Source of the DNA: an uncultured bacterium
GTDB lineage: Bacteria > Babelota > Babeliae > Babelales > Babelaceae
Direction: 5' to 3'
NCBI GenBank assembly: GCA_963848965.1
Contig: CAWKFG010000004.1
Coordinates: 576,001-640,000, forward strand
Length of the DNA: 64,000 nucleotides
Numbering within the stretch: the first letter of the stretch is position 1; each line of letters begins with the position of its first letter. The translations under genes were made by a program, and so were the position numbers. The notes under the pieces were generated by a model. The model did no database searches, was not told the origin of the DNA, and saw nothing but the letters and a program-made list of their open reading frames with translations. Below are positions 19,686-29,873 of this stretch, piece by piece.

Positions 19686-20882
19686 TTAGGAAATAATACG
19701 GTAGAATCTATGTTTACCTACTTTTATAAACATCTCTGGCTGCACCGCTATAAGCGCTTTAACATTGGTTACTTTTTCGTCACCAATATGCACTGCTCCT
19801 GCTTCAATGAGCCTGCGTGCCTCTGAATTAGTCTCAACAGCTTTAAGATGCCTTAACAAATCCACAATCCATACTTCTTTATTAAGCAATTCTGCAGCTT
19901 CTATAGGTTGTGCATGAGTATAATCTTTTTTCTGGAAAAGCTCTTCAAAAACATGGCGTGCTTGTGTAGCCTCTTCTGGCGACCAAAAACGAGCAATAAT
20001 GCCAAAAGCCATAGCCTTTTTAAGATCCATAGGATGCGCTTTGCCTGTTTCTACATCATGCTTCATAGAAGCAATTTCACCATCTGTTTTATGCAAGAGC
20101 ACATGATAATAGCGCCACATAAGATCATCAGAAATAGACATAAGCTTTCCATACACCTGATCTGCAGGCTCTGTAAGACCAATAGCATTGCCAAGAGATT
20201 TAGACATCTTCGCTTGACCATCAAGGCCCTCTAAGAGCGGCACTGTTAAAATTGCCTGCGGCTCTTGACCATAATGTTCCTGGAGATACCGTCCCATAAG
20301 AAGATTAAATGTTTGATCAGTTCCCCCAAGCTCTACATCTGCATGTAAAGCTACAGAATCATACCCTTGCATAAGCGGATACAAAAGTTCATGAAAGCCA
20401 ACACTTTGATGCTCTGCTATACGAGTTGCAAAATCTTCACGCTCAATGATACGAGCAAGTGTTACTTTTCCACAAAGCTCTACCCACTCTCTGCTTGTTA
20501 ATTTGTCAAGCCATTCTGAGTTATAGCGTACTGTTACTTTGTTTGGATCAAGAATTTTGCTTACTTGTTCAAAATAGGTTTTTGTATTATGAGCAATTTG
20601 TTCTGCAGAAAGCGGTGGCCGTGTTTTTGACCTTCCTGTTGGATCTCCAATAAGTGCTGTAAAATCCCCAATTAAAAAGATAACTTCATGCCCTAAATCT
20701 TGGAACTGCTTAAGCTTTGAAAGAGCAACAGCATGACCTAAATGCAAATCTGGTGCAGTAGGATCCATACCCAATTTTATACGTAATCTTTTACCCCATT
20801 CTAACTTTTTACGAAATTCATCTTCAGGAATAATCTGCTGAGCTCCTGCTCGTAATTGCTCAAAAGCGCTTTTAGTGCTCAT
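19686..20882 (-). CDS. tyrS: Tyrosyl-tRNA synthetase
   Basis: [20 protein letters not shown]-terminal S4-like domain. Confidence 0.97.
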
Positions 20883-21631
20883 AAATGATATGCTCCAAAC
20901 AATAATGCGATTTTACAAGCTCCCCATATGGTAGTTTTCAAAAGATAATAACCAAGAGGGTCTGCAAAAAAGTAAACAATAATAAATGGTCCAAAAAATG
21001 AAAGATAATCTGCATATTCAATATATTTATACCCTTTTTCAAAACCAATTATAAGTGCATACCGCAGCCCATTTAAAATAATGCTAATCGTTGCAATAAA
21101 GATATTAAGGTACACAAGAGAAATTAACAGAAATGCAAAGATTATCGAGAATGTAGAATAATCTCCTTGAAATACCGTTGCTATATTCAAGTGAGGCGTA
21201 GAAGAAAATAATACTGTTAACGATTTGGCATAGTATCCAAAAAGCTTAAAAACTAACGACATAGTCATATCATGGCCAAATGTTCCTACAGAGATTACTA
21301 AAGCAATAAGCGCTAAAAATAAGCTTACAAGCGCTTCAGTAATATGCATAAGAGCTAATTTAAGTAACCGAAAACGACCACTGATTGCTAACGGGTTAAT
21401 CGGCACCATATGCGGCCAACCAATACGAAAAAGTACTACTGCTAAGAAACTAAAGATATCAAAGTGCACTAACGGATTAAGGCTTGCATATCCTGCTTCA
21501 TAAGCAGTATCGTCACCCATTTTTAAAGCAACCCACGTTTGAATTACCCCATTAATAGTAATAGATATAAAATATGCAAGTAGAAGAAGAACAAGAGAAA
21601 AAAGTGATTCTGCAAGAGCAAGATTGATCAT
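20879..21631 (-). CDS. Site-2 protease (M50)-like membrane protein lacking HExxH
   Basis: A..MGD.T...[24 protein letters not shown] replaces HExxH. Confidence 0.65.
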
Positions 21632-21811
21632 AAAAACAATACACAATGTTAAGAAATTTTATAGCAAGTTCCTCTTTATTATAGCATAATGCATTATTTT
21701 TGCCAACTACACTCAGCTTATTATCTCATAGATACGCTCATATATTGACAATGCGTATTCCTTCTTAGCATGCTAAAATTACTTTCATTTCATAACAAAA
21801 AAGGAGTGTAT

Positions 21812-22786
21812 ATGATTCACTTTTTTCTCAGCATACTTGCTTTATGTGCATTTTCTTGTCTGAGCGCAGAGCAGAGTAACGAGCAGCAAGGCATACCTTT
21901 AGAACAAGAAGTATCTACACGAAGCTGCAAAAAACACTGCTCTTGTAAAAGAAAGAGAAAGTGTACACAGTTTCAGGGCTTTGTTCCATGCAATGGACTT
22001 CAGCTTTTTACAACGCTCCAGGGGTGCGGTAAACAAACAATTGTATTTTTACATGGCTTTCCTGCAGATTCACAAGTGTGGAATCAACAAAGACAAGCAT
22101 TTAATAACTGCTATAGAACATTAGCATATGACCAAAGAGGATTTGGTAAATCAAGTCAACCTGCTGGACCCTATGACATTGCTGCATACGTACAAGATCT
22201 CCGTTGCGTTTTAGACCACTTTGGGATACAAAAACCGATTCTAGTTGGTCATTCGTTTTCAGGAGAAGTTGCTATTCAATTTGCTTCTCTCTTTCCAGAT
22301 AGAGTATGTAAGCTTGTACTTGTGAGCACCAGCGCTAAACTTGTTGCGAGCCCTGATTTTCCATTTGGCGCATCTCCTGAAGCCATAGGACAAATTGTAG
22401 CACTTATTCAAAAAAATCTACGTGCAGGGCTCACTGCATTTGTTAGTGCCGGCTTTCCAGAACCTAATACCGAAGCTCTACAACAACAAGTGATAGAACA
22501 AGGCTTACAATCAACTCAGGCAACTGTTCTAAGTTTCTTCCGTGATACAAGTCCTACTGATGTACGTCCTCTGCTTCCTTCAATTACTGTTCCAACACTT
22601 ATTGTTCATGGAACAAGTGATAACATAATTCCCTTCCCAGCAGGACTATTTTTACGAGACAACATTAGAAACTCTCAATTTGTTGCCTTTGAAGGTAAAG
22701 GTCATTTTCTTTTCTTGACCGATCCTACAAAGTTTACACAGGTAATGACAAATTTTTTACGTACAACCCCTGCTTGTTGCAGATAA
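21812..22786 (+). CDS. Secreted alpha/beta hydrolase (non-heme haloperoxidase/esterase-like), copy 1
   Basis: HGFP, YDQRGFGKS, GHSFSG, HGTSD, GH; ATG after AGGAG. Confidence 0.9.
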   Translation: MIHFFLSILALCAFSCLSAEQSNEQQGIPLEQEVSTRSCKKHCSCKRKRKCTQFQGFVPCNGLQLFTTLQGCGKQTIVFLHGFPADSQVWNQQRQAFNNCYRTLAYDQRGFGKSSQPAGPYDIAAYVQDLRCVLDHFGIQKPILVGHSFSGEVAIQFASLFPDRVCKLVLVSTSAKLVASPDFPFGASPEAIGQIVALIQKNLRAGLTAFVSAGFPEPNTEALQQQVIEQGLQSTQATVLSFFRDTSPTDVRPLLPSITVPTLIVHGTSDNIIPFPAGLFLRDNIRNSQFVAFEGKGHFLFLTDPTKFTQVMTNFLRTTPACCR

Positions 22787-22802
22787 ACAGTACCTTTATA
22801 CT

Positions 22803-22830
22803 AAAAGGAGGCATATTCATGCCTCCTTTT
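22803..22830 (+). terminator. Terminator hairpin
   Basis: AAAAGGAGGCAT-attc-ATGCCTCCTTTT. Confidence 0.8.
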
Positions 22831-23017
22831 CTTTACTAACTTTTATGTCTTTTATTAAACTTGAGCATCAGTACTTGAAGGGTCTTTTTCTTTGCTTGAA
22901 AAACTTATATGCGATTGTACTGGCTTATTATTCAATAGATCCGTCCATATGTTGACAATAGCTATTTCTTCTTAGCATGCTAAAATTACTTTCATCTTAT
23001 AACCATAAGGAGCGTAT

Positions 23018-23992
23018 ATGATTCATTTTCTTTTCAGCATACTTGCTTTATGTGCATTTTCTTGTCTGAGCGCAGAGCAGAGTAACGAGCAACAAGGCAT
23101 ACCTTTAGAACAAGAAGTATCTACACGAAGCTGCAAAAAACACTGCTCTTGTAAAAGAAAGAGAAAGTGCACACAGTTTCAAGGTTTTGTTCCATGCAAT
23201 GGACTTCAACTCTTTACAACAGTACAAGGATGCGGTAAGCAAACAATTGTATTCTTACATGGCTTTCCTGCAGACTCACAAGTGTGGAATCAACAAAGAC
23301 AAGTGTTTAATAAGTGTTATAGAACGTTAGCATATGATCAAAGAGGATTTGGAAAATCAAGTCAACCTACAGGACCTTATGACGTTACTGCATATGCACA
23401 AGATCTTCGCTGTATCCTAGATCACTTTAGCATACAAAAACCGATTATAGTTGCCCACTCATTTGCAACAGAAGTTGTACTGAAATTTATTTCACTTTTT
23501 CCTGATAGAGTCTGTAAACTTGTGCTTGTCAGCGGAAATGCAAAATTCCTTGCAAGCCCAGACTATCCTTTTGGTGTACAGCCTGAATTTTTACAACAGT
23601 TAGTAACACTTGTACAAAGAAGCTTACTTGAAGGACTCACTGCATTTGTAAATCTTTCTTTTCCTGAACCTAATACTGAAGCTTTAAAAAAGCAAGTTCT
23701 TGAACAAGGTCTTCAGTCAAGCCAAGCCACTGTTTTAAGCTTTGGCCAAGGAATAGCTCCTACAGATGTACGTTCTGTTCTTCCGTCAATCACTATTCCA
23801 ACGCTCATTGTTCATGGGACAAACGATAACATATTCCCTTTCCAAGCAGGGCTATTTTTACGCGATAACATCAGAAACTCTCAATTTGTTGCCTTTGAAG
23901 GTAAAGGCCACTTTCCTTTCTTAACTGATCCTACAAGGTTTACACAAGTAGTAGAAAATTTCTTACGCTCAACTCCTGCTTGCTGCAGATAA
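23018..23992 (+). CDS. Secreted alpha/beta hydrolase, copy 2 (tandem duplicate)
   Basis: Near-identical N-terminus to copy 1; AHSFAT elbow; duplicated upstream promoter-like region. Confidence 0.9.
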   Translation: MIHFLFSILALCAFSCLSAEQSNEQQGIPLEQEVSTRSCKKHCSCKRKRKCTQFQGFVPCNGLQLFTTVQGCGKQTIVFLHGFPADSQVWNQQRQVFNKCYRTLAYDQRGFGKSSQPTGPYDVTAYAQDLRCILDHFSIQKPIIVAHSFATEVVLKFISLFPDRVCKLVLVSGNAKFLASPDYPFGVQPEFLQQLVTLVQRSLLEGLTAFVNLSFPEPNTEALKKQVLEQGLQSSQATVLSFGQGIAPTDVRSVLPSITIPTLIVHGTNDNIFPFQAGLFLRDNIRNSQFVAFEGKGHFPFLTDPTRFTQVVENFLRSTPACCR

Positions 23993-24005
23993 CAGTCTAT
24001 TTATA

Positions 24006-24037
24006 AGAAAAAGAGGCATGAATATGCCTCTTTTTCT
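24006..24037. terminator. Bidirectional terminator
   Basis: AGAAAAAGAGGCAT-gaat-ATGCCTCTTTTTCT between convergent genes. Confidence 0.8.
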
Positions 24038-24064
24038 GTGTAGCTTTTATGCTTACAAGTGCTA

Positions 24065-24799
24065 TTAATCTAGAGCATTAGTGCTTGAAAGAGCCTTTTC
24101 TGGTTGATTAAGGAGTGATGCAATTGACATACGTAAAGCCTGGCTTGGTGCAACAGATCGCTCTGTTCGCGTAGGTAAAGTAGGTATATCACGACTTGCT
24201 TCTTCTAGAGCCTGAAAAAATCTTGGCTCAGTTCCACGCGCTTGCTCACTTTGAGCTACACTTGCTAAAAAAGATAACGCAGGTACTTGCTCTATTACAC
24301 CTGATTCAATAATTTCGTCTTTTTCTAGCATCTGTGCTTTTTCATGCCGCTCTTTATGCTCATTTAATCGGCCCAAGCTATTAAAAGCACCATTACAATA
24401 ATCACACTTATAAGATTTTTCTTCTTGTCCTTGATGTACTAATACAACGTGTGTTTTAAGATCATTTGTTGCAAAAAAAGTATGTCCACAGTCATCACAT
24501 GTATAACGACGTTTCTTTTCATGTACCCGTTTCATATGTGTTCTTACGTTTCCTTGCTGGGTAAATTCTTTTCCGCATATAGTACAAGGATATTTTTTGC
24601 CTGTATGCGCGTTCATATGAATTTTTAAAATACCTTTGGTTCCAAAAGTTTTACTACATACTTCGCATGGATAGGTTTTTTTACTCCCATTTTCTTGTAT
24701 AGTTTGTTTGCGCTCAGCAATAGAAGGACTTATCTCCATCCCATATGTTTTTGCAAAAATGCACATCAGCATTATAATACCATAAAGTACTTTCATCAT
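24065..24799 (-). CDS. Secreted eukaryote-like C2H2 zinc-finger protein (4 fingers)
   Basis: Signal KTYG|ME; four CxxC-x12-H-x3/4-H units, HTGKKYPC linker. Confidence 0.9.
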   Translation of the reverse strand: MMKVLYGIIMLMCIFAKTYGMEISPSIAERKQTIQENGSKKTYPCEVCSKTFGTKGILKIHMNAHTGKKYPCTICGKEFTQQGNVRTHMKRVHEKKRRYTCDDCGHTFFATNDLKTHVVLVHQGQEEKSYKCDYCNGAFNSLGRLNEHKERHEKAQMLEKDEIIESGVIEQVPALSFLASVAQSEQARGTEPRFFQALEEASRDIPTLPTRTERSVAPSQALRMSIASLLNQPEKALSSTNALD

Positions 24800-25011
24800 T
24801 ATCCTTATATAATATAAAATAATATTTTATTTAAGATTTGCTTAAGCAATGCAAAGTACTTATTATATTATCTATTTTAAAATTTTAGTCAAACCCCAGA
24901 GTACGTTATCTGCTTTTGTACGAGGATAAATACCTATTTTTGCTTTCGCTTTATACCTATGGTATAGTAAAAGAGAAATTATTTATACGCTCTTTGATTA
25001 TGTAATAAACG

Positions 25012-27477
25012 ATGGATAAAAAATACGATCATTTAAAAGCTGAAGCTGAAGCACAAGAATTATGGCACAAACAGGATACTTATGCTCTTGAGAATAATCC
25101 TGGTCCCCTCTATAGCATTGATACACCACCGCCTACAGTGTCTGGTTCATTGCACATAGGGCATATTTTTTCATATACACAAACTGATATTATTGCTCGC
25201 TATAAACGTATGAGCGGTTTTAGTGTTTTTTATCCCTTTGGTTTTGACGACAATGGGTTACCTACTGAGCGGTATGTTGAAAAAAAGCTTAATATTAATG
25301 CACATGCACTTACTCGCTCTGCTTTTATTGAACTGTGTTTACAAGAAACAGTTGCTATAGAAAAACAATTTGAACAGCTCTGGCGCCGTATTGGCCTTTC
25401 TGTTGACTGGAAACTCTCTTACTCTACCATTGATGAACGAGCACGTAACATATCACAGCTATCATTCATTGAGCTTTATAAAAAGGGCTTTATTTATCGT
25501 AAAAATGAGCCCGCTCCTTATTGCACTAATTGCAGGACATCGGTAGCCCAAGCTGAACTTGATGATGCTCAAAAAGCATCAACATTTAACGATGTTATTT
25601 TTACTTCAAACAATGAAAAATTGATCGTTGCTACAACACGTCCTGAACTATTACCTGCAGTTGTAGCACTCATGTATAATCCTCATGATACTCGCTATCA
25701 ACATCTTAAGGGACAAATAGCCATTACTCCTTTATTTGGCCAAGAAATACCTATTTTAGAAGATGAGGGTGTAGAGCTAGATAAGGGTACTGGTCTTGCT
25801 ATGGTATCTACCTTTGGTGATAAAGCAGATGTACAGTGGTTTAAAAAGCATAATCTTCCTTATAGACCTGCTATTGGTCTTGATGGAAAATGGTTAGAAA
25901 GCACAGGACCTCTTGCTGGCATGCGCGTAGCAACCGGCCGAGAGACAGTACTTAAGCTGCTTCAAGAGCACGGCCTTTTAGTAAGCTCACGACCTATTAG
26001 TCATGTGGTCAATGTTCATGAACGGTGCAAAAAAGAGATAGAGTATCTTGCATTACCACAATGGTTTTTATCATTATTGCCGTATAAACAAGAATTTCTC
26101 AGACTTGGCGACGAGATTGCCTGGTATCCTGAATTTATGAAAGCGCGGTACAAAGATTGGGTAGAAAATATTAGCTGGGATTGGTGTCTATCACGACAGC
26201 GTTTTTATGGAATTCCCTTTCCTACATGGCATTGCACTGCATGTGGAGAGATTCTTTTAGCTAATCCAAATGAGCTTCCTGTAGATCCTCAAGAAAAGCC
26301 TTATGAAGGTCCATGTCCACGATGTCATTCACGTGATATTAAGCCTGACACAGATGTTATGGACACGTGGAATACATCTTCGCTTACTCCCTATATTTGT
26401 GCAAGTCTTTACCGCAAAGAAACTAATGATCCCTTTAATGTTACTCATGCATTAGAATTTTTACCAATGACAATGCGTCCACAAGCACATGATATTATCA
26501 GAACGTGGGCCTTTGATACTATAGTAAAAGTATGGATGCATAATACTACTATACCATGGAATGACATTGTTATTTCTGGCCATGTATTGAGCACTGAAAA
26601 AGAAAAAATTTCTAAATCAAAAGGAAATAGTCCTCTTGCTCCTGAATCTCTTTTATCGGTCTATCCTGCTGATGCTATTAGATATTGGACTGCTTCCGGA
26701 AGTTTAGGATATGATACTGCGTTTTCTGAAAACCAATTAAGTATTGGACAAAAGTTGCTTATTAAACTGTGGAATGCATTTAGATTTGCACAGCCTTACT
26801 TAGAGCATTTTAATCCTAGACATGATACCCCTGCTTATCTTGGCCATGTCAATGAGTGGCTTTTAGATACTATCAGCGTTAGTTATAAAACATATATGAA
26901 ATACTTTCAGGTATACGAATTTAGTCTTGCTCTTGATACTATTGAAAAGTTTTTCTGGCATACATTCTGTGATAACTATTTAGAACTTATTAAAGATCAG
27001 CTTACTAATCCCGATAATTATTCTGCAGATGAAGTATATGCTACAAAATGGACATTATATCACGCTGGATTGCGTATTTTACAAATGTATGCCCCTTTTG
27101 TGCCCCATGTTACCGAAACTATCTATGGAATCCTTTATAGAACAACTATGCAAACGGCATCACTCCATCAAACAAAGTTTGATGATCATCAAACTTTGTA
27201 TACCTTTAAAGAGAGCACAGCGGCTATGGAAAAAATGCTTTCTCTTATTTCTCAAGTACGCAAACTTAAAAGCGAACATCAATTATCTTTACGAGCAGAT
27301 CTTGAAAAGCTTATATTTTACCCAACACACAAAGAAGATGCTCTTGTACTCCTTAAACAAGAGGCTCTTATTAAGGGTATTACACGAGCACAGACAGTTG
27401 AATATAAGTTAGAAAAACCAACAACTTCTACCCTTGAAGAACATGATGGTAAGTGGTATGCACATATAGTCCTATGA
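25012..27477 (+). CDS. valS: Valyl-tRNA synthetase (short, archaeal/type-2-like)
   Basis: IDTPPPTVSGSLHIGH, DWCLSRQR, RPQAHDIIRTW, KISKSKGN. Confidence 0.95.
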   Translation: MDKKYDHLKAEAEAQELWHKQDTYALENNPGPLYSIDTPPPTVSGSLHIGHIFSYTQTDIIARYKRMSGFSVFYPFGFDDNGLPTERYVEKKLNINAHALTRSAFIELCLQETVAIEKQFEQLWRRIGLSVDWKLSYSTIDERARNISQLSFIELYKKGFIYRKNEPAPYCTNCRTSVAQAELDDAQKASTFNDVIFTSNNEKLIVATTRPELLPAVVALMYNPHDTRYQHLKGQIAITPLFGQEIPILEDEGVELDKGTGLAMVSTFGDKADVQWFKKHNLPYRPAIGLDGKWLESTGPLAGMRVATGRETVLKLLQEHGLLVSSRPISHVVNVHERCKKEIEYLALPQWFLSLLPYKQEFLRLGDEIAWYPEFMKARYKDWVENISWDWCLSRQRFYGIPFPTWHCTACGEILLANPNELPVDPQEKPYEGPCPRCHSRDIKPDTDVMDTWNTSSLTPYICASLYRKETNDPFNVTHALEFLPMTMRPQAHDIIRTWAFDTIVKVWMHNTTIPWNDIVISGHVLSTEKEKISKSKGNSPLAPESLLSVYPADAIRYWTASGSLGYDTAFSENQLSIGQKLLIKLWNAFRFAQPYLEHFNPRHDTPAYLGHVNEWLLDTISVSYKTYMKYFQVYEFSLALDTIEKFFWHTFCDNYLELIKDQLTNPDNYSADEVYATKWTLYHAGLRILQMYAPFVPHVTETIYGILYRTTMQTASLHQTKFDDHQTLYTFKESTAAMEKMLSLISQVRKLKSEHQLSLRADLEKLIFYPTHKEDALVLLKQEALIKGITRAQTVEYKLEKPTTSTLEEHDGKWYAHIVL

Positions 27478-28029: not shown

Positions 28030-28184
28030 ATCTAGCCCCCCTATCTGATAGAACAAACACCATTTCTAGTGTAGTCACTATCCTTTTTTTGTCAATTTAA
28101 TTTAGCAACTTGCAAGCTTTTAATATAAGCATTATAATTACATTAATTACAAATAATCTATCTAATAAGCTCGGGGGGGCCACT

Positions 28185-29873
28185 ATGAAATTTATATATA
28201 GATATATTTTTATACTACTTTGTACTTCTTATGCGTATGCAATGGAACAGGATAAAGAACAGAAGTCGCGAGTACCATCTTTGTTTACTCTATGCCAAAG
28301 ACAAGCAATTACTGTTCTTTCTCAAGGACGGCTCAGCTTACGACAATTAAGAGAGCTTTTAGTTCTTTATAAAGATCTGCCTGCTAATATACTGACCCCT
28401 ATTATTTCATCGCTTGCTAATAATAACATCCTTCAACAAAACCATGGAGAAATTCCGCTGCTACTTGCTTTAGCAGAGTATTGTGCTTATCAAAGTAACA
28501 ATACCTGTTTGGAAAAAAACGCTCAAGAGATAAAAGAAGAAAGAAAAAAAGGTGAAGTACATAAAGGGGTAAGCAGAGATCACCTTCTTAGACGTCTTAA
28601 TCAAGCAATGGAACTGCCAGATACGTGTCCTTATGCAGCCCTTTTTATTACTCTTATCTCTAAAGCTCTTTACGCTGTCCAAGTACAAGATAGAGCATTT
28701 GAACAACCTTTGGTTACCGCCTGCCTTTATGATTATAAAACAGTTGTTGATTACCTTATTGCTCACCACACACGATTTCTCGACTTTACACATGCTGTAA
28801 TACAGCTTATGGAAAGAAACGAAGAAAAAGCTTGTATACTTATCAATCTTTTGAAAGATCGTAAAAAAAAGTTACAGACTCAAAGTCCCTTCTGCTTTGA
28901 TAGTAATAGTCTCTTTATACACGCCTTTACACACCGCTATACAAAGGTTCTACATTTGTTAGAAGCAGACATAGATTTTAAGGAGCTCCCTCTTGGATTC
29001 GTTCAGACTAATTATCTTTTTCTTAATAGATGGGCAGAAGATTGTATTTTAAGAGGAGATATATCACTATGCTCTCAGCTTATTGAGCGCATTAAAGCAA
29101 AGTGTGATATTAATCGTGTGTTGCTTCAAGTACCGGAATCTGGTTTTGCACATTCAACTCTCTTGTCAGCTGCTTTGACAAAAGAGTATGTAAAACTCGC
29201 TGCTTTATTACTTTCTCAAGGCGCAAATCCTAATAATGCATTACATGGAATACCTCTGTTGTATCAGACATGTCTACAAAATAATATTCTCCTTACTCAG
29301 CTGTTACTTGAATATGGTGCTAATGTTAACGCACGTTACCAACCAGAACAAGAAAATGAAGATACAGGTAATACAGCATTGCATATAGCAGCTCAACAGG
29401 GAAATGTAGATTGCGTTCGACTGCTTATAGAACATGGAGCACATATTACTATCAAAAACGAAGCAGATGTTACACCTTTACATAAAGCATGCTTCTATGG
29501 ACACAGTGAAATTGTGCAAGAACTTTTACAAAGAGGAGCAGAAGTAAATGCTCAAGATATAGAAGAAAGCACACCATTACATACCGCTTGCAAGCGAGCA
29601 GACCTTGAGCTTGTTAAGCTCTTACTTAAGCATAAGGCAGAAGTAAATAGTAAAACCGCTCTCGGACATACACCTCTTCATTCAGTGCTTTATGAACTTT
29701 TAGCAGATGATAGCAAAAAAGATCTACAAAAGCAGGTTATAGAGCTCCTTTTAGCTCATGGCGCTCAAATAGATGTAATGAACAATGATGATGATACTCC
29801 TTTAGATCTTGCTCAAGACTATGAAGATCCTGAAATCTTAGCTCTTTTTAAGGACAAAGGAAAAAAAGAGTAA
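28185..29873 (+). CDS. Secreted ankyrin protein with N-terminal BC-box/SOCS-box-like motif
   Basis: YAYA|ME, VPSLFTLCQRQAI...LPANI, about 7 C-terminal ankyrin repeats; GGGGG RBS. Confidence 0.85.
   Translation: MKFIYRYIFILLCTSYAYAMEQDKEQKSRVPSLFTLCQRQAITVLSQGRLSLRQLRELLVLYKDLPANILTPIISSLANNNILQQNHGEIPLLLALAEYCAYQSNNTCLEKNAQEIKEERKKGEVHKGVSRDHLLRRLNQAMELPDTCPYAALFITLISKALYAVQVQDRAFEQPLVTACLYDYKTVVDYLIAHHTRFLDFTHAVIQLMERNEEKACILINLLKDRKKKLQTQSPFCFDSNSLFIHAFTHRYTKVLHLLEADIDFKELPLGFVQTNYLFLNRWAEDCILRGDISLCSQLIERIKAKCDINRVLLQVPESGFAHSTLLSAALTKEYVKLAALLLSQGANPNNALHGIPLLYQTCLQNNILLTQLLLEYGANVNARYQPEQENEDTGNTALHIAAQQGNVDCVRLLIEHGAHITIKNEADVTPLHKACFYGHSEIVQELLQRGAEVNAQDIEESTPLHTACKRADLELVKLLLKHKAEVNSKTALGHTPLHSVLYELLADDSKKDLQKQVIELLLAHGAQIDVMNNDDDTPLDLAQDYEDPEILALFKDKGKKE

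What the first reader, a model, noticed from the sequence alone, without database searches (positions are those of the whole stretch)
24065..24799. Secreted Kruppel-type zinc-finger protein with eukaryotic corepressor-like motifs: candidate transcription-factor mimic
Seen: signal|ME, four tandem C2H2 fingers with a TGEKPY-like linker (HTGKKYPC), a basic EKKRR patch, then a disordered-looking tail with LSFLASVA and a near-terminal LRMSIASLLN (24107-24136). Established: tandem C2H2 arrays are eukaryotic DNA-binding domains. LxxLAxxA-type helices resemble Sin3/TBL1-binding motifs, and MSIxxLLN resembles eh1 (FSIxxIL)/fungal repressor motifs. Inference: a nucleomodulin acting as a sequence-specific host repressor.
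Basis: partly seen in the sequence, partly recalled or inferred. Interest (0 to 1): 0.72.

Follow-up and report, generated by a model that had tools for sequence, protein, structure and literature searches.

The report
Exported four-finger zinc-finger protein, Dependentiae
A bacterium that lives as a parasite inside protists encodes a small eukaryote-style zinc-finger protein behind an export signal, one of many such proteins in its phylum, so it may be sent into the host to bind host DNA, though the proposed repressor motifs do not hold up.

Summary
Window 24065-24799 (-) encodes a 244-aa protein with an N-terminal signal-like segment ending G|ME, four C2H2 fingers (Pfam E 2e-19), the HTGKKYPC and EKKRR linkers, and a low-confidence tail holding both quoted motifs at the stated coordinates.

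The genome is a 1.73-Mb Dependentiae MAG. It holds 18 C2H2 ORFs, including a tandem cluster of 5- to 12-finger Krüppel-type genes. Thirteen of the 18 pass a strict signal-like test. P0001's finger region finds matches in 73 of 260 other Dependentiae genomes.

Only one true homologue was found (P0005, 55% identical). It keeps the signal, all 16 zinc ligands and the first half of the tail (LSFLASVAQS, FFQALEEA). It ends before LRMSIASLLN.

None of the seven co-regulator patterns I wrote from memory (five corepressor-type, plus LxxLL and a SID-like pattern) matches. I therefore read it as a Sec/T2SS-exported, eukaryote-derived nucleic-acid-binding effector. A role as a host transcription-factor mimic is plausible (about 0.5). 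A specific repressor role is unsupported.

The Met-after-signal rule was already noted by this scan in other Dependentiae genomes. The exported zinc-finger set was not. I found no paper describing it in Dependentiae. Zinc-finger enrichment has been catalogued in Endozoicomonadaceae.

The parts
24065..24799 (-). ORF of 244 aa (P0001), stop codon included; the probable true start is the second ATG at 24796
   Evidence: P0002 is 243 aa; P0005 starts MKVLY
24802..24806 (-). Shine-Dalgarno-like AAGGA, 5 nt before the second ATG
   Evidence: read directly; no SD-like sequence precedes the internal Met21 codon
24740..24799 (-). signal-peptide-like segment, residues 1-20, predicted cut after T-Y-G (-3 Thr, -1 Gly)
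   Evidence: hydropathy; 13 of 20 residues identical in P0005; helix 2-19 in the model
24734..24739 (-). Met21-Glu22, the genome-wide 'Met first' junction after the signal
   Evidence: 129 of 548 signal-like ORFs carry [GSAC]M[EQ] here, against 0 of 365 and 1 of 529 in the controls
24605..24667 (-). C2H2 finger 1 (residues 45-65; residues at -1, 2, 3, 6 are T, G, I, I)
24521..24586 (-). C2H2 finger 2 (residues 72-93, H-x4-H; Q, G, N, T)
24506..24520 (-). basic linker EKKRR between fingers 2 and 3 (LKKRP in P0005)
24434..24499 (-). C2H2 finger 3 (residues 101-122, H-x4-H; A, N, D, T)
24344..24406 (-). C2H2 finger 4 (residues 132-152; S, G, R, E)
24191..24343 (-). conserved half of the tail, residues 153-203, with predicted helices 174-187 (LSFLASVAQSEQAR) and 193-203 (RFFQALEEASR)
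   Evidence: 28 of 51 identical to P0005; helices at low pLDDT
24068..24190 (-). unique end of the tail, residues 204-244, with predicted helix 220-230 holding LRMSIASLLN (24107-24136)
   Evidence: missing from P0005; no significant match in 260 other Dependentiae genomes
24006..24037 (.). 14-bp hairpin with an A-run and a U-run, between the convergent hydrolase and zinc-finger genes; probably a two-way terminator
   Evidence: fold -23 kcal/mol, z -6.5, 0 of 200 shuffles as good; missed by the consensus scan
21770..23992 (+). two tandem signal-bearing alpha/beta-hydrolase paralogues that share the variable slot with the zinc-finger gene
   Evidence: Pfam Abhydrolase_1 E 2e-32 and 2e-31; the slot varies in 10 relatives

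Best explanation
This is a genuine gene of a Dependentiae (Babelota) bacterium. Known members of that phylum grow only inside protists.

The protein starts with a Sec signal peptide of the phylum's own type, with a cut site followed by Met-Glu. It then has four eukaryote-type C2H2 fingers and an acidic, mostly disordered tail. The first two short helices of the tail are conserved.

Most likely route (inferred): export by Sec, cleavage by signal peptidase I, release through the type II secretion machinery into the host cytoplasm, then entry into the host nucleus. The mature protein is about 25 kDa with a basic finger region. In the nucleus the fingers would bind nucleic acid, most probably DNA. 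The conserved part of the tail (residues about 170-203) would contact a host factor.

Whether it switches host genes on or off cannot be said.

It is one lineage-specific member of a large, patchy, multi-copy set of signal-tagged C2H2 proteins in this phylum. These were probably derived from eukaryotic zinc-finger genes.
For: Shown here.
- Domain identity: Pfam above cut-offs; predicted beta-beta-alpha folds; closest solved sequences are DNA-binding finger arrays, namely Aart 2i13 E 1.2e-36, ZNF568, CTCF, PRDM9 and ZBTB24.
- Organism: the ValRS next door is 54-68% identical to 10 records, 3 of them titled Dependentiae or Babelota.
- Native gene: GC 0.367 and GC3 0.212, against a genome mean of 0.379±0.052 and 0.268±0.085. 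It lies between TyrRS and ValRS.
- Export signal: the junction [GSAC]M[EQ] occurs in 129 of 548 signal-like ORFs, against 0 of 365 non-signal ORFs and 1 of 529 random windows. The signal is 13 of 20 identical in the homologue.
- Machinery in the genome: three secretins, two T2SS-E ATPases and signal peptidase I.
- Selection: the homologue P0005 is 55% identical over 206 aa. All 16 zinc ligands are invariant. Identity is 66 of 108 in the fingers and 28 of 51 in tail 153-203, but only 7 of 24 in the segment after the signal.
- Family context: the own genome holds 18 C2H2 ORFs; 17 of them also have a PF00096 match. Thirteen of 18 pass a strict hydrophobic N-terminus test.
- P0001's fingers match 73 of 260 other Dependentiae genomes at E<=1e-3. 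In the 11 best loci, 12 of 16 finger ORFs pass the same strict test.
- Clusters of at least 4 K/R in 5 residues outside the finger cores occur in 13 of 18 own and 8 of 16 related finger ORFs. The rate is 62 of 318 in other signal-like ORFs.

From papers (passages read). Babela has a T2SS as its only secretion system, and its signal-bearing ankyrin proteins are taken to be secreted into the amoeba cytoplasm (PMC4378268). Chromulinavorax lies in the host cytoplasm and 44% of its CDS carry signal peptides (PMC6561590).
Against: - Nothing here shows secretion, nuclear entry or DNA binding.
- P0001 has no classical NLS outside the finger array; its only basic cluster is the inter-finger linker.
- Only 1 of 3 linkers is TGEKP-like.
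- The residues at the usual base-contact positions of finger 1 (T, G, I, I) are unusual for DNA reading.
- C2H2 fingers can also bind RNA or protein.
- Sec export delivers an unfolded chain to the periplasm, so zinc loading there and onward passage are assumed.
- The family has only two members, so conservation rests on one comparison.
- The host is unknown.
- The tail model is of low confidence (pLDDT 29-44 by block).
Confidence: 0.5

Rival explanations
1. An exported effector that acts in the host cytoplasm. The fingers would bind host RNA or protein rather than DNA, and the tail would be a docking peptide.
For: C2H2 fingers are known to bind RNA and protein as well (established knowledge). 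Two of four fingers have H-x4-H spacing, and 2 of 3 linkers are non-canonical. Weak Pfam matches to the dsRNA-binding finger types zf-C2H2_jaz and zf-met fall below their cut-offs. No classical NLS lies outside the fingers.
Against: The best solved-structure matches are all DNA-binding arrays. The finger region is basic, pI 9.32. At 25 kDa the mature protein should not be kept out of a nucleus (established knowledge of pore size).
Confidence: 0.2
2. The protein works for the bacterium itself. Either it stays in the periplasm or on the surface, or a second form starting at the conserved Met21 stays in the cytoplasm and regulates bacterial genes.
For: The Met right after the signal is conserved genome-wide (129 of 548) and its purpose is unknown. 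It could in principle serve as an internal start.
Against: No Shine-Dalgarno-like sequence precedes Met21, while AAGGA precedes the first start. The same junction is found on many unrelated exported ORFs, including very long ones. That fits a cleavage-site rule better than dual starts. I found no report of a tandem eukaryote-type C2H2 array acting as a bacterial self-regulator. The known prokaryotic type, Ros/MucR, did not appear in the Pfam scan at E<=0.01.
Confidence: 0.12
3. One reading: a sequence-specific host repressor that recruits Groucho/Tup1-type or Sin3/TBL1-type corepressors through MSIASLLN and LSFLASVA.
For: LSFLASVAQS and FFQALEEA are conserved in P0005 and are predicted helical. 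'SI..LLN' occurs 4 times in 1384 ORFs, and 2 of those are in zinc-finger proteins: P0001 and the C1:200583 ORF with NSISFLLNS.
Against: The MSIASLLN part is absent from the only homologue. No strict eh1, WRPW, PxDLS, EAR or SID-like pattern (all recalled) matches. 'SI..LLN' was found in 0 of 16 related finger ORFs, and the enrichment is post hoc: 1 of the 3 other hits falls among 17 finger ORFs, about 0.04 by my arithmetic. The tail has no significant match in 260 other Dependentiae genomes. Acidic-hydrophobic helices fit activation domains just as well.
Confidence: 0.07
4. Eukaryotic contamination of the assembly, or a decaying, recently acquired gene with no function.
For: The fingers are about as similar to animal zinc-finger proteins (about 35% over under half of the query) as to other Dependentiae ones (up to 46%).
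Against: The gene lies on an 873-kb contig between TyrRS and ValRS. Its composition is native. It has a Dependentiae-type signal, an SD-like site and a terminator-like hairpin. The frame is intact, and a 55% identical homologue keeps all zinc ligands.
Confidence: 0.02

Closest known systems
MoHTR1/MoHTR2/MoHTR3 of Magnaporthe oryzae (small secreted C2H2 zinc-finger nuclear effectors; PMC10189765 and PMC12488382, title and start of abstract seen)
   Same: A signal peptide followed by C2H2 fingers in a small protein made by a parasite. These fungal effectors are reported to enter the host nucleus.
   Different: They come from a fungus that uses its own eukaryotic secretory pathway. No sequence relationship beyond the finger domain was tested here. 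P0001 is bacterial, Sec/T2SS-type, has four fingers and carries a different tail.
Zinc-finger 'eukaryotic-like proteins' of Endozoicomonadaceae (PMC12491435: Kistimonas enriched in zinc-finger proteins; PMC9743535 lists 'Zinc-finger double domain'; passages read)
   Same: Eukaryote-type tandem C2H2 arrays in host-associated bacteria. My scan for two perfect HTGEKPY linkers 28 residues apart found 76 stretches in the species-representative genomes. Most are in Endozoicomonas, Kistimonas, Ca. Sororendozoicomonas and Ca. Endonucleobacter. Three are in records titled Babeliales or TM6.
   Different: The complete Endozoicomonas ascidiicola ORFs I read (L051, L056, L106) start with a conserved non-hydrophobic MTNERNSIMQN and have no Sec signal. 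The papers catalogue these proteins at domain level only. The Dependentiae proteins carry Sec signals.
Predicted Sec/T2SS secretome of Dependentiae (ankyrin-repeat proteins of Babela massiliensis, PMC4378268; Chromulinavorax destructans, PMC6561590)
   Same: The same export logic: a signal peptide on a eukaryote-like interaction domain, in the same phylum, with many paralogues. An ankyrin protein lies 3 kb away in the window, at 28110-29873.
   Different: Those papers do not contain the word 'zinc' (Babela and TM6 comparative papers) or 'C2H2' (0 occurrences in the listing). The domain here reads nucleic acid rather than protein.
TAL effectors of Xanthomonas and other bacterial nucleomodulins (recalled; review PMC11980394 seen only in the listing)
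   Same: The concept: a bacterial protein delivered into a eukaryotic host that binds host DNA through a modular repeat array and carries an effector tail.
   Different: The repeat type differs (TAL repeats), delivery is by type III secretion, and TAL effectors have a defined NLS and an acidic activation domain. Nothing of this kind is shown for P0001.
Ros/MucR prokaryotic zinc-finger regulators (PMC9779718, seen only as a reference)
   Same: A Cys2His2 zinc site in a bacterial DNA-binding protein.
   Different: Ros/MucR has a single, structurally different finger, is cytoplasmic and regulates the bacterium's own genes. Its Pfam family did not appear in the scan of P0001 at E<=0.01.

Membership tests
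Classical C2H2 zinc fingers (Pfam PF00096 / PF13894 / PF13465) | Spacing C-x2-4-C-x12-H-x3-5-H with a conserved aromatic and a conserved aliphatic core residue | tested here: met
   4 of 4 fingers. All 16 ligands are invariant in P0005.
Classical C2H2 zinc fingers (Pfam PF00096 / PF13894 / PF13465) | Profile score above the curated cut-off | tested here: met
   68.8 against 27, 63.7 against 25.2, and 56.5 against 40 bits.
Classical C2H2 zinc fingers (Pfam PF00096 / PF13894 / PF13465) | Beta-beta-alpha fold | tested here: met
   The AlphaFold2 model shows four beta-beta-alpha units. Block pLDDT is 68-83 for residues 41-120 and 58-72 for 121-150.
Krüppel-type arrays in the strict sense | Seven-residue TGEKP(Y/F)x linkers between successive fingers | tested here: not met
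   The linkers are TGKKYP (6 residues), EKKRRYT (7) and QGQEEKSYK (9), so none is canonical. The paralogues in the C1:234-242 kb cluster do have TGEKPY.
Krüppel-type arrays in the strict sense | Zinc-dependent, sequence-specific DNA binding | not testable with these tools
   Only similarity to DNA-binding arrays is available.
Sec signal peptide / signal peptidase I substrate | n-h-c regions, with small residues at -3 and -1 | tested here: met
   K3, then h-region residues 4-16, then T18-Y19-G20|M21. The same layout is present in P0005. No trained predictor was available.
Dependentiae 'Met-first' export signals (scan notes e1-2372423, e1-2087300) | [C/S/G/A]-Met-[acidic or polar] directly after the hydrophobic region | tested here: met
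   P0001 is among the 129 of 548 signal-like ORFs with this junction. The controls give 0 of 365 and 1 of 529.
Nucleomodulins (bacterial effectors acting in the host nucleus) | Delivered out of the bacterium into the host cell | not testable with these tools
   The signal and the T2SS parts are present. Secretion itself is inferred from PMC4378268 and PMC6561590.
Nucleomodulins (bacterial effectors acting in the host nucleus) | Nuclear localisation (an NLS or free diffusion) | tested here: inconclusive
   The only basic cluster is EKKRR inside the array. The mature protein is 25.2 kDa.
eh1 / Groucho-binding motif (pattern FxIxxIL, recalled) | Phe at position 1 and the Ile/Leu pattern | tested here: not met
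   There is no match. The sequence is MSIASLL.
eh1 / Groucho-binding motif (pattern FxIxxIL, recalled) | Conserved in homologues | tested here: not met
   P0005 ends before it. It is absent from 16 related finger ORFs.
Sin3-interaction domain, Mad1 type (pattern phi-x-x-phi-phi-x-A-A-x-x-phi, recalled) | Match to the pattern in an amphipathic helix | tested here: not met
   No match in P0001. The conserved helices 174-187 and 193-203 exist but do not fit the pattern.
Ros/MucR prokaryotic zinc finger | Match to the ROS_MUCR profile | tested here: not met
   It is not among the 17 families listed at E<=0.01.

The most novel reading that the evidence does not exclude
Dependentiae export whole batteries of eukaryote-type zinc-finger transcription factors into their protist hosts. 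This genome has 18 such genes, with up to 12 fingers each. Most have a Sec signal, and many have a basic cluster in front of the array and acidic-hydrophobic ends. Relatives of the finger region occur in 73 of 260 other genomes of the phylum. On this reading the parasites rewrite host transcription with natural 'designer' finger arrays, a Sec/T2SS counterpart of TAL effectors. P0001, with its homologue P0005, would be one module, with its own conserved effector tail.
Probability: 0.35. Interest if true: 0.85.

Novelty: new variant of a known kind. Interest (0 to 1): 0.62.

Why it matters
Bacterial proteins that enter the host nucleus are known, and so are eukaryote-like domains in intracellular bacteria. 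A bacterial effector built from classical tandem C2H2 fingers has not, as far as my searches go, been described or tested. The nearest cases are fungal MoHTR effectors and a domain-level catalogue in Endozoicomonadaceae.

If these proteins bind host DNA, several things follow:
- Their finger residues could be read to predict host target sites.
- They could help identify the unknown hosts of uncultured Dependentiae.
- They would show repeated capture of the main animal and protist DNA-reading domain by bacteria.

The finding also gives a concrete, small (25 kDa), two-member family with a conserved 50-residue tail. That makes it easy to test.

Tried and rejected
1. A word-index homologue search with P0001 alone found only the protein itself (1 of 215 candidates).
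2. Genome-contig scans with the P0001/P0005 alignment (87 stretches, none confirmed) and with the 12-finger paralogue (62 stretches, none confirmed) gave nothing. The peptide patterns chosen were too specific.
3. A metagenome-contig scan with P0005 gave only finger-level matches (L038, L039). The DNA around P0005 was therefore not seen, and I cannot say whether its short end is a real stop or a recent truncation.
4. The tail-only HMMER search gave 4 hits. P0003, P0004 and P0006 are long repeat proteins that matched in 5-10 stretches, and I rejected them as repeat-inflated chance.
5. The protein-atlas search of the tail gave no usable hit.
6. Sequencing runs: none was listed and no RNA holder was listed.
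7. The consensus promoter/terminator scan found 5 promoter-like sites against 4.9 expected, and 0 terminators. The hairpin was found only by folding.
8. 'SI..LLN' shared with the C1:200583 ORF is kept only as a weak post-hoc lead.
10. Rfam found nothing in the window.
11. One regex-positive ORF (C4:176937-178100) was dropped from the finger count by eye. It has no PF00096 match.
Full report
**1. What is there**

Window 24065-24799 on the minus strand is an open frame of 244 codons. Pfam places it firmly in the classical C2H2 zinc-finger families: zf-C2H2_4 E 2e-19, zf-C2H2 E 1.2e-17 and zf-H2C2_2 E 2.1e-15, all above their curated cut-offs.

The four fingers are at residues 45-65, 72-93, 101-122 and 132-152. 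LRMSIASLLN maps to 24107-24136, exactly as written.

An AlphaFold2 model built on the two-sequence alignment has a mean pLDDT of only 56.7. The four beta-beta-alpha units reach block values of 68-83 (residues 41-120) and 58-72 (121-150). Residues 2-19 form a helix. The tail 156-244 is below 50, with three short helices at 174-187, 193-203 and 220-230.

An AAGGA lies 5 nt before the second ATG (read). The database copy is 243 aa and the homologue starts MKVLY, so the second ATG is the likelier start.

Downstream, between this gene and the convergent hydrolase gene, a 14-bp hairpin flanked by an A-run and a U-run folds at -23 kcal/mol, with z = -6.5 and 0 of 200 shuffles as good. The consensus terminator scan missed it.

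**2. Whose gene it is**

The window is C4:576001-640000 of a 1.73-Mb, five-contig assembly, 88.7% complete.

The ValRS gene next door is 54-68% identical to 10 records. Three of them are titled Candidatus Dependentiae or Babelota; the others are unnamed MAGs.

The neighbours are ordinary bacterial genes: deoxynucleoside kinase, Hsp20, TyrRS, ValRS, YbeY and SpoU methylase. They are mixed with an ankyrin-repeat protein and two signal-bearing alpha/beta hydrolases.

The gene's GC (0.367) and GC3 (0.212) are within the genome's spread of 0.379±0.052 and 0.268±0.085. Contamination is therefore very unlikely.

In the 10 relatives, the stretch upstream of ValRS, which in this window runs from TyrRS to ValRS, holds different genes. 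Many of them begin with a hydrophobic N-terminal segment, and none is a zinc-finger gene. The gene therefore sits in a variable slot.

**3. The export signal**

The N-terminus has one Lys, a 13-residue hydrophobic core, and then T-Y-G followed by Met-Glu.

With a crude gene set of 1384 ORFs of at least 100 aa, 548 have a strongly hydrophobic N-terminal 9-mer and no later membrane segment. Of these, 129 carry [GSAC]-M-[EQ] directly after it. The controls give 0 of 365 clearly non-signal ORFs at a comparable position and 1 of 529 random 15-residue windows of the same proteins.

This is the 'Met-first' rule that the scan had already noted in other Dependentiae genomes (e1-2372423 and e1-2087300). 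I confirm it for this genome.

The genome encodes three secretins, two T2SS-E ATPases and signal peptidase I.

Published work on cultured members takes signal peptide plus type II secretion as the route into the host cytoplasm (PMC4378268, passages). It also shows Chromulinavorax lying free in the host cytoplasm, with 44% of its CDS carrying signal peptides (PMC6561590, passages). Export of P0001 is therefore well supported at sequence level. Delivery into the host is inferred.

**4. Relatives**

The word-index search found only the protein itself.

I used the single exhaustive HMMER job on the tail alone (92 residues). It gave four hits. Three are long repeat proteins, which I reject.

The fourth, P0005 (208 aa, from a 140-kb contig), is a true homologue: 55% identity over 206 residues, E 3e-86. 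Identity to P0005 by region is as follows.

| Region of P0001 | Residues | Identical to P0005 |
|---|---|---|
| Signal | 1-20 | 13 of 20 |
| Segment after the signal | 21-44 | 7 of 24 |
| Fingers | 45-152 | 66 of 108 |
| First half of the tail | 153-203 | 28 of 51 |
| Last part of the tail | 204-244 | no counterpart (2 of 41 aligned) |

All 16 zinc ligands are invariant. The residues at finger positions -1, 2, 3 and 6 are similar in the two proteins: TGII/TGVV, QGNT/QTNT, ANDT/VTET and SGRE/NGRQ.

The signal, the fingers and the first two tail helices (L-x-FLA-x-VAQS and EP-x-FFQA-[LI]-EEA) are thus under constraint. The part holding LRMSIASLLN is not shared.

A tail-only search of all 261 Dependentiae genomes held found only the gene itself. 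The best other hit has E 0.0067 per genome, which is noise over 260 genomes.

A profile of the two proteins finds otherwise only finger-level matches covering at most 52% of the query. The named ones are from animals.

**5. The wider set**

The same genome has 80 PF00096 matches at E<=0.01. It has 19 ORFs with at least one finger by regular expression. I dropped one by eye (C4:176937; it has no PF00096 match), leaving 18. Seventeen of those also have a PF00096 match.

- Nine lie in one tandem run at C1:233097-241884, flanked by tilS-like and gyrB genes. One of the nine, C1:233097, has only 2 fingers and is a different type. The other eight have 5 to 12 fingers with perfect TGEKPY linkers. The 12-finger protein scores zf-C2H2 E 1e-92 with 12 stretches.
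- A second run at C1:611851-619643 has five genes of another finger type, one of them 1209 aa long.

Thirteen of the 18 pass a strict hydrophobic N-terminus test. Two more look signal-like by eye but fall below the threshold.

With P0001 as query, 74 of 261 Dependentiae genomes (73 of 260 others) have a match at E<=1e-3. The 150 matches listed (164 more were not) cover only query residues from about 8 to 169, which is the fingers and flanks and never the tail beyond 169. With the single-finger Pfam model, 8 of 41 genomes matched at E<=1e-4, the own genome included.

In the 11 best loci, 12 of 16 finger ORFs pass the strict test. One of these scored at an internal segment. Three more look signal-like by eye. 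The one clear exception starts at the locus edge.

Clusters of at least four K/R in five residues outside the finger cores occur in 13 of 18 own and 8 of 16 related finger ORFs. The rate is 62 of 318 in other signal-like ORFs and 155 of 841 in all other ORFs of 150-450 aa. Examples are KKRKR, PKKRKL and KRQKKE just before the first finger. That fits nuclear-import signals, but it also fits plain DNA-binding patches.

**6. Beyond the phylum**

I scanned the species-representative genomes for two perfect HTGEKPY linkers 28 residues apart. This gave 76 stretches.

- Most are in Endozoicomonadaceae: Endozoicomonas including the cultured E. ascidiicola, Kistimonas, Ca. Sororendozoicomonas and Ca. 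Endonucleobacter.
- Three are in records titled Babeliales or TM6 MAGs.
- Others are scattered, including two Pseudomonas records. Some are on very short contigs that may be contamination.

The complete E. ascidiicola ORFs start with a conserved, non-hydrophobic MTNERNSIMQN. They differ from the Dependentiae ones in lacking a Sec signal.

Two papers list zinc-finger domains among 'eukaryotic-like proteins' of this family without further study (PMC12491435 and PMC9743535, passages).

**7. The repressor claim**

None of the patterns I could write down from memory matches P0001: eh1 FxIxxIL, WRPW, PxDLS, EAR LxLxL and DLNxxP, LxxLL, and a Mad1-type SID pattern.

MSIASLL has Met where eh1 needs Phe, and it is missing from P0005.

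'SI..LLN' occurs four times in the 1384 ORFs, two of them in finger proteins: P0001, and NSISFLLNS in the C1:200583 ORF. It occurs in 0 of 16 related finger ORFs. Because the pattern was taken from P0001, the fair count is 1 of the 3 other hits among 17 finger ORFs, about 0.04 by my arithmetic. That is a weak lead only.

The tail is acidic, pI 4.64. Hydrophobic-acidic helices fit activation domains as well as repression motifs. I therefore keep 'host-factor docking tail' and drop 'repressor'.

**8. Literature**

- 'Dependentiae' with 'zinc finger' returned one unrelated paper.
- No Dependentiae paper in the listing contains 'C2H2'.
- 'zinc' occurs 0 times in the Babela and TM6 comparative-genomics papers.
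- Searches for nucleomodulin with C2H2, endosymbiont effectors, and Legionella with C2H2 returned nothing on bacterial tandem C2H2 effectors.
- The nearest described things are the fungal secreted C2H2 nuclear effectors MoHTR1-3, for which I saw only titles and abstract starts.

Subscription journals and supplements were not searched.

**9. Verdict**

An exported, eukaryote-derived finger protein aimed at the host is the best reading. I put export at about 0.85 and host nuclear DNA binding at about 0.5. The specific corepressor motifs are not supported.

Noticed in passing
G000:C1:233097-241884 (loci L001-L008, L045), outside the window: Tandem run of nine C2H2 genes on one strand, interrupted by one unrelated ORF (237826-238647) and flanked by tilS-like and gyrB genes. 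C1:233097 has 2 fingers and is a different type. The other eight have 5-12 fingers with perfect TGEKPY linkers, near-identical signal peptides ending YSMQE, and a KR...KRQKKE basic pair before the first finger. A 29-aa finger remnant lies at 233039-233095.
   Followed up: partly
G000:C1:611851-619643 (loci L042, L043), outside the window: Second cluster of five finger genes of another type (paired fingers with H-x4-H, weak Zap1_zf1 and zf-Di19 matches). It includes a 1209-aa protein built of repeated modules, each preceded by an S-L-[IV]-Q-T-L-[ILM] motif. Two of the proteins end in acidic ...FDILQFLEDKK or ...DVLQFLGEKDS.
   Followed up: partly
G000:C1:330542-332623 (L040), outside the window: 693-aa signal-bearing protein with three fingers and a roughly 300-residue C-terminal part that has no Pfam match. 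A ...DDWSCGYWAVFNA... stretch looks to me like a cysteine-peptidase active site; this was not tested.
   Followed up: no
whole genome G000: Met-first junction after signal peptides: 129 of 548 signal-like ORFs have [GSAC]M[EQ], against 0 of 365 and 1 of 529 in the controls. The scan has noted the same rule in other Dependentiae genomes.
   Followed up: yes
window 21770-22786 and 23018-23992 (+): Two tandem alpha/beta-hydrolase paralogues with signal peptides, followed by a Cys- and Lys-rich stretch (CKKHCSCKRKRKC) before the catalytic domain. The basic run resembles a nuclear-import signal.
   Followed up: no
window 19686-25012 and loci L009-L018: The stretch upstream of ValRS, which in this window runs from TyrRS to ValRS, is a variable slot. 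Each of 10 relatives holds different genes there, many of them beginning with a hydrophobic N-terminal segment.
   Followed up: partly
window 20879-21646 (-): 255-aa ORF next to TyrRS with no Pfam match at E<=1e-5. It is conserved in position in relatives, where the counterpart starts MINLA.AEFLFALILL, so it is probably a membrane protein.
   Followed up: no
L051, L056, L106 (Endozoicomonas ascidiicola records): Paralogous 5-7-finger Krüppel-type genes share a conserved non-hydrophobic N-terminus, MTNERNSIMQN...FDRRTVAIQSEPLDLSIP. It may be a secretion or targeting signal of another kind. The loci have 29-32% GC.
   Followed up: no
L058, L096 (Pseudomonas sp. Ant30-3 and P. migulae records): Five-finger TGEKPY-type ORFs in free-living-type Pseudomonas assemblies, one of them on a 6.5-Mb contig. 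This is unexpected and was not examined.
   Followed up: no
window 28110-29873 (+): 587-aa ankyrin-repeat protein (Ank E 4.5e-39) 3 kb from the zinc-finger gene. It is of the kind already described for this phylum.
   Followed up: no
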